From an uncultured Desulfarculales bacterium (lineage in GTDB: Bacteria; Desulfobacterota; Desulfarculia; Desulfarculales; JAHJDS01): a stretch of DNA of 64,000 nucleotides. Below, one piece after another: positions 32,249-34,334 of this stretch. How positions within the stretch are numbered: the first letter of the stretch is position 1; every line of letters starts with the position of its first letter. The position numbers were made by a program, and so were the translations under genes. The notes beneath the pieces were generated by a model. That model searched no databases. It was given only the letters and a program-made list of their open reading frames with translations, and was not told where the DNA came from. Location of the stretch: NCBI GenBank assembly GCA_964569795.1, contig CAZMVB010000008.1, forward strand, positions 12,303-76,302. Reading direction: 5' to 3'.

Positions 32249-32351
32249 CGGCGTTCGTCCTAAAGGATGGGTCCATATATTATAAAAAACCTTGAACCTG
32301 AAATAGTCTCGATCCTTTCGACGACCATGTCAAGGATGGGCCGAAGGCAAG

Positions 32352-32573
32352 TTGATCACCTGTGGAACTCAGAACGACCGGCGATTCCTCAAGTCTGTTT
32401 TCAGGCTGCGGCCGCAAGAGCGCCAACTGTGCGATTTAAGACCCGGCCGCTGGGCCTTGCTTCTTTCCGAGGTCAAACGACTCCCCGAGCCGGTCCCGTT
32501 CAAGGGCCGCCAGGGCCTCTGGATCCTGCCGCCCGACGTCGAGGCCCAGGTCCGGGCGCAATTGGAGGCATGA
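32352..32573 (+). pseudogene. C-terminal remnant of an ASCH-like domain gene
   Basis: DLRPGRWALLLSEVKRLPEPVPFKGRQGLW resembles the ASCH C-terminal motif; N-terminal part absent, in-frame stop upstream. Confidence 0.55.
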
Positions 32574-33095
32574 TCAACCTTTCTGATTAGGTCCTTTGTC
32601 TGACGATTCTGGAGGTAATTCAGATTGGATCCCGATAGTCTTAAACAGGCTCCTGTCGAGCTCCTTGGCCCCGATCTCACTTCTCAAGGCATCCATGAGG
32701 AGGTTCACTTCTTTTTGCATCTTTTCCCTATCCGTAAAATCGGGGTCATACCATTGTGTAGGAATAAAACGCGACTGCAAGAGACTCACGTACAAATCGG
32801 TGTAAGCCTTAAAGGCAGGCTGGGACAAAACGACCTCGGCCTCGCCGAAGCAATTGTCAATAATATCACAGGATTTTACCAACTCATTTTTCTGAAGATC
32901 CTCTTTCATGGGGCCTACTGCCCACAGCGTAATTCTTCGAAGCGCCGGCGCCAGCTTCCGGGCAAAATCAACCTTGGCCTTGTGTCGCTCCAATTCAAAG
33001 ATGCGTTTCCGGGCCAGGTAAACGGCCCCGAGCGACGCGAGGACAGACCCTATGATCGTCAACACGGAAATGGGAAGCTGCAGCCACCAGGGCAT
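32574..33095 (-). CDS. Hypothetical protein with one N-terminal TM helix
   Basis: GGAG RBS; hydrophobic residues about 3-28, then a helical domain; low-GC codons. Confidence 0.7.
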   Translation of the reverse strand: MPWWLQLPISVLTIIGSVLASLGAVYLARKRIFELERHKAKVDFARKLAPALRRITLWAVGPMKEDLQKNELVKSCDIIDNCFGEAEVVLSQPAFKAYTDLYVSLLQSRFIPTQWYDPDFTDREKMQKEVNLLMDALRSEIGAKELDRSLFKTIGIQSELPPESSDKGPNQKG

Positions 33096-33193
33096 GGAGG
33101 TTCTCCACGTATTGATATTGCTACCGAATTACACTATGAAGCGCCACGGTGACCACGAACTCCTGATCCCGAACTGCTGAAGGAACGCGGTTA

Positions 33194-33322
33194 TCAAGAC
33201 TTTTTCTTCGGGGTGATGGTCTTCGTTTTCCTCGGTTTATCAGCTTTCTTAACCGGTTGCAGCAGTCCCGTACCCTGAGGCTTGGGCGGCTTTGGGGGCG
33301 GTGGTTTTTCGTCTTTGGTCAT
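33194..33322 (-). CDS. Lys/Pro-rich micropeptide, 42 aa (MTKDEKPPPPKPPKPQGTGLLQPVKKADKPRKTKTITPKKKS)
   Basis: GGAGA RBS 5 nt before the ATG at 33322. Confidence 0.6.
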   Translation of the reverse strand: MTKDEKPPPPKPPKPQGTGLLQPVKKADKPRKTKTITPKKKS

Positions 33323-33414
33323 GGCTGTCTCCGTTATAAGACCGCACAATAAACGAGTATAAGGAATGCGCTGATGCCTCAGCTCGGGTGAGCGCAAGCC
33401 CACCCCAGTCTTTA

Positions 33415-33594
33415 CTATGTTTCGAAGTCCTTTATCTTGTCCATTGGAGCATATTTTAAAAAACTCGTACCCCCACCGACTTCTCCCTTGCCCTTCTTCT
33501 TTGTTTTCTTGGGGGGCTTGGATGGCTTGGGGGTTTCGGACTGTTCGGCAGCCCCTTGGAGGTCAGAGGTAGGTCGCTTCTTTTCTTCGGCCAT
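33415..33594 (-). CDS. Lys/Pro-rich micropeptide, 59 aa (MAEEKKRPTSDLQGAAEQSETPKPSKPPKKTKKKGKGEVGGGTSFLKYAPMDKIKDFET)
   Basis: GGGAGG RBS directly after the upstream stop; hand-translated, not in the ORF track. Confidence 0.6.
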   Translation of the reverse strand: MAEEKKRPTSDLQGAAEQSETPKPSKPPKKTKKKGKGEVGGGTSFLKYAPMDKIKDFET

Positions 33595-33605
33595 GACAGC
33601 CTCCC

Positions 33606-34109
33606 TTAAGGGATGATCCGATAAACGATAAAAAATGCGGCGCTGATGCCTGAAACCACGAGGGCGCAGGCTCCTGTCACGACTCTCAAGGCCTTGGACT
33701 TCAATATTGTTTTGTCCCTTTCGCAGGAATTGTGGAGATCGATAATCAGCATTCCGATCAGCTCCTTATGGTCCACTGACCCGTATTCAGTCCAAGTCCT
33801 TATTTCAACGGGATAGGTGTAAACATTCCTCGGCCATAGTGCCAGGATTGAGAATACCAAACCCACCAGGGCAGCCCCGAAGGCGACTACCAGCGAGCCC
33901 ATTTCCCAAAATCCGCTTGGTGTACGTTTCAGGGAAGAGACTATGGATAGCATGGCTGCGAGAACAACCCCCTGGCCTGCCAGTCCAAACGACGCCTTTG
34001 CGTCCAGCTTGTCGCAGGTCTCCATTAAGGCGCCTAGCTGCTTGACCAGCAGGTCATAGATGAGCTTGGCGTTCTCGAGAGAGCCTATTCGGGATCCTTG
34101 TTGTTCCAT
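33606..34109 (-). CDS. Three-TM protein resembling the Pycsar effector (PycTM/DUF5706) family
   Basis: DKLDAKAS..TM..TM-LALWPR..KSKAL..TM architecture. Confidence 0.6.
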   Translation of the reverse strand: MEQQGSRIGSLENAKLIYDLLVKQLGALMETCDKLDAKASFGLAGQGVVLAAMLSIVSSLKRTPSGFWEMGSLVVAFGAALVGLVFSILALWPRNVYTYPVEIRTWTEYGSVDHKELIGMLIIDLHNSCERDKTILKSKALRVVTGACALVVSGISAAFFIVYRIIP

Positions 34110-34334
34110 CTTCCCTGGCCAGCCCGTGCATTTGATTTCAAAATGATGATAAAATGTACCCTCTGAGCTTGTCCAGGACTTTTTGGGGGCCGCTGGTGCC
34201 TTTTTTGGGTGCTGGATTCGGCTTCAGGCAGCCAAGAATGGTCGTCGAACGGGTCACCATGAATGTCAGTTCAAGGGAAAAATTATATAGTTAGGTTGAT
34301 CGACCTGAGAAATGATTACTCGGCCCTTGTCCCG

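What the first reader, a model, noticed from the sequence alone, without database searches (positions are those of the whole stretch)
33415..34109. Orphan PycTM-like membrane protein coupled to a 59-aa Lys/Pro-rich peptide
Seen: a 167-aa 3-TM protein with the DxKA..LWPR..K layout; 11 nt after its stop, a GGGAGG-led 59-aa basic peptide missed by the ORF track; then a hairpin at 33386-33405. Established: this TM layout resembles Pycsar/CBASS-type cell-death effectors, which normally sit beside a cyclase; none is present here. Inference: a two-gene effector-peptide module (toxin/antitoxin-like or abortive infection) independent of cyclic nucleotides.
Basis: partly seen in the sequence, partly recalled or inferred. 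Interest (0 to 1): 0.65.

Follow-up and report, generated by a model that had tools for sequence, protein, structure and literature searches.

The report
Cyclase-less PycTM-like protein with proline-rich micro-protein
A small foreign DNA island carries a membrane protein of the family that kills cells in Pycsar anti-phage systems, but with no signal-making enzyme; it is followed instead by tiny proline/lysine-rich protein genes, and the same pairing recurs on phages and plasmids in other bacteria, pointing to an undescribed way of controlling such a protein.

Summary
On the minus strand, a 167-aa three-helix membrane protein (34109-33606) is followed 11 nt later by a GGGAGG-led 59-aa ORF (33594-33415).

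The membrane protein matches PADLOC PycTM models (E 1e-7) and is very rare. Two whole-database searches found about 15 relatives, all metagenomic.

In 8 of 11 lineages, with membrane proteins only about 16-25% identical to the window's, a 36-62-aa proline-rich ORF with a strong ribosome site follows the stop. It starts 11-19 nt after it (96 nt in one lineage). Seven lineages passed a strict test (p about 5e-14 against 1265 control ORFs). No locus holds a cyclase.

The contexts are mobile: right after a phage endolysin, beside an integrase, with a Rep3 replication gene, and behind DUF2188 (PADLOC candidate PDC-S16). The window copy lies in a 2.1-kb low-GC islet, bounded by about 39-nt inverted repeats, that splits the conserved cinA-thpR-recA-alaS operon.

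Best reading: a cyclase-independent membrane pore-former plus a small regulating partner, antitoxin-like, carried as mobile-element cargo. The pairing is shown; the mechanism is inferred. New variant of a known kind.

The parts
32249..34334 (-). Foreign islet (about 2.1 kb, GC about 0.51 against 0.67 in the flanks) inserted between cinA and thpR
   Evidence: Composition profile. In relatives L021, L022, L023, L026 and L029, cinA is directly followed by thpR (then recA and alaS where the contig reaches). Flank identities by Pfam. Same depth as the flanks in the source metagenome, and no empty-site joint.
34146..34311 (-). Two sigma-70-like promoter candidates upstream of the 3TM gene (TTCTCA-18-TATAAT; TGGACA-18-TATCAT)
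   Evidence: Consensus scan: 4 sites found against 1.2 expected in the region. A pattern match only.
33606..34109 (-). 167-aa three-helix membrane protein of the PycTM / pJV1-SpdB3 family
   Evidence: PADLOC PycTM E 1.2e-7; precomputed PF18967.6; hydropathy; AlphaFold2 model pLDDT 79, helices 5-59, 67-91 and 114-165; family alignment with conserved D..K, P93, Y109 and K139.
33415..33594 (-). 59-aa Lys/Pro-rich micro-ORF (pep59), GGGAGG ribosome site, 11 nt after the 3TM stop. It sits where relatives have their partner peptide.
   Evidence: The same position is occupied in 8 of 11 lineages. It ranks 17 of 5843 frames against the peptide profile.
33386..33405 (-). 8-bp GC-rich hairpin between the two micro-ORFs; no U-tract
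   Evidence: RNA fold; not called as a terminator; no Rfam match.
33194..33322 (-). 42-aa Pro/Lys-rich micro-ORF (pep42), GGAG ribosome site; the best sequence match to relatives' partner peptides
   Evidence: Rank 1 of 5843 background frames against the peptide profile with composition correction off; no hit with it on.
32574..33095 (-). 173-aa protein with one N-terminal membrane helix and a helical bundle; co-resident cargo, not part of the conserved pair
   Evidence: No family hit. Its only homologue (P0008, 49% identity) stands alone on L001, without a 3TM gene or peptide. Model pLDDT 67.5 with only generic helix-bundle matches.
32290..32328 (+). Left arm of an imperfect inverted repeat of about 39 nt near the islet edge
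   Evidence: score 28 against a maximum of 24 in 500 shuffles; the core occurs only at the two islet ends in 64 kb.
34238..34276 (-). Right arm of the same inverted repeat

Best explanation
A conserved two-gene cargo module of mobile elements. The first gene encodes a three-helix membrane protein of the PycTM / pJV1-SpdB3 family, the family whose members form oligomeric membrane pores and act as the killing arm of Pycsar/Pucsar. It is co-transcribed and closely coupled with one small, probably unstructured proline-rich protein (two here).

No cyclase accompanies it. The micro-protein, not a cyclic nucleotide, is therefore proposed to be the control input. Its Pro-rich core would dock on the cytoplasmic, membrane-adjacent face of the 3TM oligomer, where the family's conserved residues lie, and hold it inactive. 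This is antitoxin-like logic. If supply of the partner fails or it is displaced, for example during phage infection or loss of the element, the membrane protein would act.

Shown: the genes, the family relationship, the recurrent pairing, the absence of a cyclase nearby, the mobile-element context and the insertion. Inferred: binding, the direction of regulation, toxicity and any defence or addiction role.
For: Family:
- PADLOC PycTM E 1e-7 for the window protein. Relatives score 1e-7 to 0.008, and P0002-P0004 align over most or all of the model length.
- Precomputed PF18967.6 hits.
- Three-helix topology.
- PycTM is described as the 'pJV1-spdB3 family 3TM', and EcPucTM is a hexameric pore with a channel of about 15 A (bioRxiv 10.64898/2026.08.12.744502).
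- SpdB3 was highly toxic when induced in E. coli, and it is followed by the small gene spd79 (PMC4447253).

Pairing:
- A Pro-rich 36-62-aa ORF with a strong ribosome site starts 11-19 nt after the stop in the window, L003, L004/L010, L011-13, L015/L101, L016/17 and L018/19. In L008/9 the gap is 96 nt.
- p = 5e-14 against controls.
- A profile of the AT-rich clade's peptides ranks pep42, the L008 peptide and the L003 peptide 1st to 3rd of 5843 frames.
- The peptide is as conserved as the membrane protein: 83% against 76% identity between L015 and L101.
- An in-frame 24-nt indel separates L011 from L013.
- L020, whose 3TM gene lacks TM3, has no peptide either.

No cyclase: and all locus gene tables.

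Mobile and defence context:
- Downstream of a holin-like gene and an Amidase_2-SLH endolysin (L016; in L020 only the SLH-bearing C-terminal end of such a gene is on the contig). Also a phage-type integrase (L019), an HNH endonuclease (L017) and a Rep3 replication gene (L004).
- DUF2188 = PADLOC PDC-S16, E 3e-37, directly upstream in six loci.
- PIN-RHH, an SNF2 helicase and a HEPN protein as neighbours.
- The islet is an insertion into a conserved operon.
Against: - No experiment of any kind supports it.
- Peptide similarity across the deep lineages is short and low-complexity. With HMMER's composition correction on, the profile finds none of them at E <= 10.
- pep59 and pep42 share only a PKPxKPPK patch (p = 0.04 for DNA, 0.11 for protein).
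- The net charge of the peptides does not track the charge of the cytoplasmic face (rho -0.08).
- Three lineages lack a convincing Pro-rich ORF (L006, L014, L020), and P0015 is followed by a 249-aa gene instead.
- Pfam's gathering threshold is not reached in the local Pfam copy.
- A cyclase elsewhere in the genome was not excluded.
- Other notes of this scan report PycTM-like proteins in housekeeping contexts, and a later check that dropped a 'killer held by polyproline peptides' reading for a look-alike E. coli module. These are unverified leads.
Confidence: 0.45

Rival explanations
1. An orphan but still cyclic-nucleotide-gated effector. The 3TM protein responds to a cNMP made by a cyclase encoded elsewhere in the genome or by an invading element, and the micro-proteins are accessory or irrelevant.
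For: It has the same size and architecture as the canonical PycTM models of 154-165 positions. Earlier scan notes describe cyclase-less PycTM-like proteins tied to ordinary cAMP signalling (unverified).
Against: None of about 16 loci from very different organisms has a cyclase within reach. A 2-kb mobile cassette that depends on a host cyclase would rarely work after transfer. The conserved partner ORF would remain unexplained.
Confidence: 0.15
2. A mobile-element housekeeping function rather than defence or addiction. The 3TM protein and its small partner would serve DNA passage or spread (like SpdB3-Spd79 of Streptomyces plasmids), lysis timing, or superinfection exclusion of the carrying phage or plasmid.
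For: The family's name-giver SpdB3 is needed for plasmid spreading and is followed by the small gene spd79 (PMC4447253). In L016 the module sits directly after a holin-like gene and an endolysin, and L020 has the end of such a gene upstream. L004 carries a Rep3 replication gene.
Against: No TraB/FtsK-type translocase or other spd genes are in any locus. The window copy sits in a 2-kb islet with no phage or plasmid genes. The PHROG holin hit is insignificant (E 0.37). The module also occurs in non-phage contexts and next to defence-type genes.
Confidence: 0.2
3. The micro-protein is a docking tag, adaptor or sensor rather than an inhibitor. Its Pro-rich core anchors a variable tail (or, in some members, a whole protein) to the 3TM oligomer, and binding of a phage or cell component to that tail switches the membrane protein on.
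For: The N-terminal core is conserved while the C-terminal tails change freely, even by frameshift. P0015 is followed at 19 nt by a 249-aa gene in the peptide's place. A later check of a look-alike E. coli family favoured a docking-tag reading (an unverified lead).
Against: The P0015 neighbour could not be read (no DNA). No fused form was seen in the loci at hand. Nothing shows what the tails would bind.
Confidence: 0.15
4. The small ORFs are non-functional low-complexity frames, and the islet is a decaying remnant with a lone leftover effector gene.
For: Peptide similarity is compositional and fails a composition-corrected search. Substitutions in closely related pairs are not concentrated at third codon positions. 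There are no expression data, because only DNA runs hold the locus.
Against: The ORF, its position and its strong ribosome site persist across lineages whose membrane proteins are only about 16-25% identical to the window's, in both AT-rich and GC-rich genomes. The amino-acid motif is kept. The indel between L011 and L013 is in frame. All four islet ORFs are intact.
Confidence: 0.05

Closest known systems
Pycsar / Pucsar effector PycTM / PucTM (Pfam PF18967; PADLOC PycTM; 'pJV1-spdB3 family 3TM')
   Same: Same protein family by profile match. Same size (about 155-185 aa). Three membrane helices with helical cytoplasmic extensions. Carried on mobile or defence DNA (bioRxiv 10.64898/2026.08.12.744502).
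   Different: No PycC/PucC cyclase beside it in the window or in any relative. A conserved proline-rich micro-ORF sits in the neighbouring position instead. Only about 16-25% identity among lineages, and below Pfam's threshold in the local copy.
SpdB3-Spd79 of Streptomyces conjugative plasmids (pSVH1, pJV1)
   Same: The membrane protein family is named after SpdB3. spdB3 is directly followed by a small gene (spd79), is plasmid-borne, and was toxic when induced in E. coli (PMC4447253).
   Different: No TraB translocase, SpdB2 or other spread genes here. The hosts are not mycelial actinomycetes. Whether Spd79 resembles the Pro-rich peptides was not tested, because no sequence was at hand and tblastn of family members against plasmids found nothing.
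Membrane-toxin / small-protein antitoxin pairs such as SpoIISA-SpoIISB of Bacillus (from my own knowledge)
   Same: A multi-helix membrane protein gene followed by a gene for a small, largely unstructured protein that binds its cytoplasmic part; an operon with toxin first and antitoxin second.
   Different: No sequence relationship. Toxicity and neutralisation are untested here.
SLATT / CBASS '2TM' membrane effectors
   Same: Small helical membrane effectors of signalling defence systems. Two relatives (P0003, P0004) have weak PADLOC 'Effector 2TM' hits, E 0.003-0.1.
   Different: Those act under a nucleotide-synthesising partner (CD-NTase, SMODS), and none is present here. The matches are much weaker than those to PycTM.
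Unpublished look-alike noted earlier in this scan: a three-helix membrane protein with tandem proline-rich micro-ORFs in the cos-adjacent defence hot spot of P2-like E. coli prophages (notes e1-155894, e1-387703, e1-279303)
   Same: As described in those notes: a 3TM protein, tandem cationic proline-rich micro-ORFs just downstream, and a mobile/defence hot-spot context.
   Different: Homology was not tested. Three sampled P2-like hot spots held other cargo, so I obtained no sequence to compare.

Membership tests
Pycsar system (PycC cyclase + PycTM effector) | Effector of the PycTM membrane family | tested here: met
   PADLOC PDLC02364 E 1.2e-7 and PDLC02363 E 1.2e-6. Relatives P0003 and P0004 align full-length to the PycTM models. 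Precomputed PF18967.6 hit.
Pycsar system (PycC cyclase + PycTM effector) | Adjacent pyrimidine (or purine) cyclase of the class III cyclase fold | tested here: not met
   The islet holds only four ORFs with no cyclase hit. The flanks are FabH, CinA, LigT/ThpR, RecA, AlaS and others. No cyclase family appears in any gene table of the related loci. The rest of the genome was not searchable.
Pycsar system (PycC cyclase + PycTM effector) | Activation by cCMP/cUMP (or cGMP) and protection against phage | not testable with these tools
   Needs biochemistry and phage challenge.
PycTM / pJV1-SpdB3 3TM protein family (Pfam PF18967) | Three membrane helices with helical cytoplasmic N-terminal and TM2-TM3 regions | tested here: met
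   Hydrophobic segments 39-61, 66-94 and 140-167. AlphaFold2 helices 5-59, 67-91 and 114-165, pLDDT 79. This matches the description of PucTM.
PycTM / pJV1-SpdB3 3TM protein family (Pfam PF18967) | Score above Pfam's gathering threshold | tested here: inconclusive
   The local Pfam-A copy (PF18967.5, cut-off 27.2 bits) gives no hit for the window protein and 14.2 bits for P0004. The collection's precomputed table lists PF18967.6 at E <= 1e-5 for the window protein and several relatives.
PycTM / pJV1-SpdB3 3TM protein family (Pfam PF18967) | Oligomeric (hexameric) pore | not testable with these tools
   Only single-chain prediction was available. The PucTM structure is not in the PDB copy searched: there was no sequence hit and no fold hit.
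Protein toxin-antitoxin pair (membrane toxin + small protein antitoxin) | Tight, conserved genetic linkage in one operon | tested here: met
   Gaps of 11-19 nt and a strong ribosome site in 7 of 11 lineages, and a 96-nt gap in an eighth.
Protein toxin-antitoxin pair (membrane toxin + small protein antitoxin) | Toxicity of the large partner and neutralisation by the small one | not testable with these tools
   The only indirect pointer is that the family's name-giver SpdB3 was toxic in E. coli (PMC4447253).
Streptomyces plasmid-spread (Spd) apparatus | Co-occurrence with the TraB translocase and other spd genes on a conjugative plasmid | tested here: not met
   No such genes in the window or in any related locus.
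3TM + polyproline micro-ORF modules of P2-like prophage hot spots (earlier notes of this scan) | Sequence or profile homology of the membrane protein and of the micro-ORFs | not tested
   No member sequence could be retrieved. Three sampled hot spots carried other systems.

The most novel reading that the evidence does not exclude
A new class of cyclase-independent membrane immunity or addiction module. A PycTM-type pore-former is gated not by a cyclic nucleotide but by a dedicated, co-translated, unstructured proline-rich micro-protein. That micro-protein docks on the cytoplasmic mouth of the oligomer, and its loss or displacement during infection, or after loss of the element, opens the pore. 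The module is spread on phages, plasmids and small inverted-repeat-bounded cassettes across distant phyla.
Probability: 0.3. Interest if true: 0.8.

Novelty: new variant of a known kind. Interest (0 to 1): 0.6.

Why it matters
PycTM-type proteins are known as effectors that wait for a cyclic-nucleotide alarm. Here the same kind of protein travels without any alarm-making enzyme but with a conserved micro-protein that gene finders often skip.

If the micro-protein controls the membrane protein, there would be a second, protein-based way of arming these pores. It would also be a compact two-gene module of about 0.7 kb that is easy to test.

It would further explain some 'orphan effector' calls made by defence-finding software. 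Such tools look for the cyclase and ignore ORFs of 40-60 codons.

The case also shows a tiny cargo cassette splitting the otherwise invariant cinA-thpR-recA operon.

Tried and rejected
**Searches that found nothing**
- Word-based homologue search with the single protein found only itself. Whole-library phmmer found five distant relatives.
- tblastn of the window protein, P0003, P0006 and P0013 against PLSDB plasmids and GenBank phages gave no match.
- Scans of GTDB genomes and IMG/VR with the AT-rich clade alignment found no relative. The alignment of the deep lineages was too divergent to scan with.
- PDB sequence search and fold searches against PDB and viral models gave only generic helix bundles.
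- The 173-aa neighbour has no family hit. Its one homologue stands alone, and its model gives generic matches. I therefore rejected it as a module member, and rejected the 'second peptide pairs with the 173-aa protein' idea.

**Statistical tests that failed or were weak**
- The composition-corrected peptide profile search found nothing at E <= 10.
- Charge complementarity between peptide and cytoplasmic face showed no correlation.
- Paralogy of pep59 and pep42 was not shown.

**Ideas dropped**
- Hairpin as terminator: no U-tract, so not supported. No Rfam family in the islet.
- ASCH-like fragment at 32352-32573: no Pfam hit at E <= 0.1.
- The 40-aa ORF upstream of the 3TM gene as a third peptide: rank 236, rejected.

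**Data that were not available**
- Expression: only DNA sediment metagenomes hold the locus. Laying the contigs showed no empty-site variant.
- An attempt to fetch the look-alike E. coli P2-prophage module sampled three hot spots that carried other cargo, and I abandoned it.
Full report
**1. What is in the sequence**

All genes below are on the minus strand. The stretch between the stop of cinA (34335) and the start of thpR/ligT (32248) holds four intact ORFs.
- A 167-aa protein lies at 34109-33606.
- A 59-aa ORF, pep59, lies at 33594-33415. Its ATG comes 11 nt after the TAA stop of the first gene and is preceded by GGGAGG.
- A 42-aa ORF, pep42, lies at 33322-33194 and reads MTKDEKPPPPKPPKPQGTGLLQPVKKADKPRKTKTITPKKKS. 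A GGAG sits 8 nt upstream.
- A 173-aa protein with one N-terminal membrane helix lies at 33095-32574.

Between pep59 and pep42 an 8-bp GC-rich hairpin is predicted. No U-tract follows it, and the terminator scan does not call it.

It should be extended by the second micro-ORF.

**2. The islet is an insertion**

GC content falls from about 0.67 to about 0.51 between roughly 32300 and 34330. Pfam confirms the flanking genes as FabH, CinA, LigT/ThpR, RecA and AlaS.

In the nearest genomes that could be found, cinA is followed directly by thpR. Where the contig reaches, recA and alaS come next. These are MAGs labelled Desulfobacterales, Deltaproteobacteria and others, with CinA at most 52% identical. 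The 2.1 kb are thus foreign cargo splitting a conserved operon.

The islet carries an imperfect inverted repeat of about 39 nt close to both ends, at 32290-32328 and 34238-34276. Its alignment score is 28, against a maximum of 24 in 500 shuffles. Its core occurs nowhere else in the window. There is no transposase or integrase inside.

In the source sediment metagenome the islet has the same depth as its flanks, and no empty-site form was seen.

**3. The membrane protein**

- PADLOC's PycTM models match at E 1.2e-7 and 1.2e-6. No other PADLOC family matches.
- The local Pfam-A copy (PF18967.5) gives no hit. The collection's precomputed table lists PF18967.6 for this protein and most relatives.
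- The family is very rare. A full phmmer pass over 1.8 billion representatives found five relatives, at E 7e-8 to 9e-4 and 23-32% identity. A profile search found about a dozen more, all metagenomic.
- Relatives P0003 and P0004 align over the whole PycTM model.
- The AlphaFold2 model (pLDDT 79, pTM 0.67) shows a long N-terminal helix running into TM1, then TM2, a loop, and a long helix running into TM3.
- With the N-terminus inside the cell, the conserved residues (D33/D36/K38, P93, Y109, K139) all lie at the cytoplasmic membrane face. This placement is an inference.
- No solved or viral structure matches beyond generic helix bundles.

The literature gives the frame. A 2026 preprint describes PycTM/PucTM as the 'pJV1-spdB3 family 3TM'. 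It shows EcPucTM to be a hexameric cylinder with a central channel of about 15 A. SpdB3 of the Streptomyces plasmid pSVH1 is needed for plasmid spreading, was highly toxic when induced in E. coli, and is followed by a small gene, spd79 (PMC4447253).

**4. The partner micro-ORF is conserved**

I read the DNA around the relatives. A co-directional small ORF with a strong ribosome site follows the 3TM stop in these loci:

| Locus | ORF length | Gap after 3TM stop |
|---|---|---|
| L003 | 41 aa | 18 nt |
| L004 / L010 | 43 aa | 13 nt |
| L011-13 | 49-57 aa | 18 nt |
| L015 | 36 aa | 18 nt |
| L101 | 37 aa | 19 nt |
| L016 / L017 | 51-52 aa | about 20 nt |
| L018 / L019 | 57-62 aa | 16-26 nt |
| L008 / L009 | 61 aa | 96 nt |

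All of these ORFs are proline-rich (12-32% Pro), and most are lysine-rich. In the AT-rich clade they share a core of about P-x-P-P-x-P-[DE]-P-x-K-I-x-x-F-K-K.

Evidence that the pairing is real:
- Against 1265 control long ORFs, 0.55% have a 30-70-aa downstream ORF with a Shine-Dalgarno site and at least 10% proline. Seven of 11 family lineages do, giving p = 5e-14. The AT-rich lineages share ancestry, so they are not independent draws. Persistence of the ORF is still evidence of selection.
- Between L015 and L101 the peptide is 83% identical and the membrane protein 76%.
- L011 and L013 differ by an in-frame 24-nt repeat unit.
- C-terminal tails vary freely, even by frameshift, while the core stays.
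- L020 has a 3TM gene that lacks TM3, and it also lacks the peptide.

Exceptions:
- L006 has only a 26-aa acidic ORF in that position.
- L014 has no convincing ORF.
- P0015 is followed by a 249-aa gene that I could not read.

**5. How far the peptide similarity reaches**

A profile built from the AT-rich clade's peptides finds nothing at E <= 10 among 5843 background frames when HMMER's composition correction is on.

With the correction off, ranks 1, 2 and 3 go to the frames holding pep42, the L008 peptide and the L003 peptide. The frame holding pep59 ranks 17th. The aligned part is the short Pro-rich core.

The deep lineages therefore share position, ribosome site, size, composition and a short motif. 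Formal homology is not proven.

By sequence, pep42 is the best counterpart of the relatives' peptides. By position, pep59 is. The two share only a PKPxKPPK patch.

The only homologue of the 173-aa protein stands alone elsewhere. The third genes in other loci are unrelated to it and to each other across clades. The conserved unit is therefore the 3TM gene plus the micro-ORF.

**6. Context**

No locus has a cyclase. Instead the module sits in these settings:
- directly after a holin-like gene and an Amidase_2-SLH endolysin in L016; L020 has the SLH-bearing end of such a gene upstream
- beside a phage-type integrase (L019) and an HNH endonuclease (L017)
- on a contig with a Rep3 replication gene (L004)
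- near PIN-RHH, an SNF2 helicase and DUF5131 (L008)
- near a HEPN protein (L006)

In six loci a DUF2188 protein lies directly upstream. It matches PADLOC's defence candidate PDC-S16 at E 3e-37. DUF2188 has been linked in print to predicted defence operons, including one with cyclases and a cNMP-binding TIR protein. This is the typical setting of cargo or 'moron' genes of mobile elements.

**7. Mechanism**

What is shown is a pore-former-family membrane protein, without its usual signal generator, genetically welded to a small proline-rich protein and carried on mobile DNA.

The best-supported reading is that the micro-protein is the control element. It would dock by its Pro-rich core on the conserved cytoplasmic face and keep the oligomer inactive, in the manner of an antitoxin. 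My confidence is about 0.45.

The direction of regulation, toxicity and any role in phage defence or element maintenance are all inferred.

The rivals are:
- a cyclic-nucleotide-gated orphan served by a cyclase elsewhere (0.15)
- a mobile-element function such as DNA spread, lysis timing or exclusion (0.2)
- a docking tag or sensor role for the micro-protein (0.15)
- meaningless ORFs (0.05)

An idea I considered was that the proline runs make the peptide a gauge of translation (EF-P dependence). It remains speculative. Several members have only a single PP pair, and a later check recorded in this scan dropped that reading for a look-alike family (an unverified lead).

**8. Comparison and novelty**

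As a protein, the 167-aa product belongs to the PycTM / SpdB3 family by profile match and architecture.

As a system it is not Pycsar, because the defining cyclase was looked for and is absent.

I found no paper that describes a PycTM-family protein paired with a proline-rich micro-protein.

Earlier notes of this scan describe a similar-looking pairing in P2-like E. coli prophages, with a 3TM protein followed by tandem polyproline micro-ORFs. I could not obtain those sequences to test a relationship. I therefore list them as leads only.

Verdict: a real, conserved and uncharacterised module, a new variant of a known kind. It is of moderate to high interest because it is small, testable, and suggests a protein-based alternative to nucleotide signalling for arming these membrane effectors.

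Noticed in passing
window 32290-32328 and 34238-34276: Imperfect inverted repeat of about 39 nt close to both ends of the islet. Its core (CCTTTCGACGACCAT / CCGTTCGACGACCAT) occurs nowhere else in the 64 kb. With no transposase inside, the islet looks like a non-autonomous cargo cassette bounded by terminal inverted repeats.
   Followed up: partly
window 32574-33095 (-): 173-aa protein with one N-terminal membrane helix and a helical bundle, and no family hit. Its only homologue (49% identity) is in a different organism of the same sediment sample (L001 1551-2051), between a DUF2147 gene and a NIL/ferredoxin gene. Function unknown.
   Followed up: partly
L006 1304-1384: Here the 3TM gene (P0004) is followed not by a Pro/Lys-rich ORF but by a 26-aa strongly acidic ORF (MCNFASDPEDEDWPDSNETESITKGG). 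That ORF has a GGGAGG site and overlaps the stop. This 3TM protein has the most positively charged cytoplasmic part of the family (+6). A HEPN RiboL-PSP-like gene (weak Pfam hit) converges on it.
   Followed up: no
L016 4730-4963, L017 3423-3656, L020 672-905, L012 1348-1599, L015 153-386, L101 159-419: A 77-86-aa DUF2188 protein (PADLOC defence candidate PDC-S16, E 3e-37) sits directly upstream of the 3TM gene throughout part of the AT-rich clade. The module there may be three genes. The window islet has no DUF2188.
   Followed up: partly
L016 5902-6552 and L019 2081-2755: The gene after the micro-ORF in these two loci is a shared protein of about 220 aa (56% identity). It has a weak, sub-threshold HEPN_AbiU2 hit (E 0.006). 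Other loci carry unrelated third genes.
   Followed up: partly
window 34138-34260 (-): A 40-aa ORF upstream of the 3TM gene has a small KPNPAPKK patch but no ribosome site. It ranks only 236 of 5843 frames against the peptide profile, so it is probably not a gene.
   Followed up: yes
window 32352-32573 (+): The 73-aa frame on the opposite strand at the islet edge, called ASCH-like in another first-reader note, has no Pfam match at E <= 0.1.
   Followed up: partly
L103 1271-3665, L104 1-3683, L105 481-3606: The hot spot between the replication gene and the portal gene in three randomly sampled P2-like E. coli prophages holds three different cargoes. These are an HTH + reverse transcriptase set, an ABC-three-component system with an AAA ATPase, and a ParB-like protein + hypothetical protein + cytosine methyltransferase set.
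   Followed up: no
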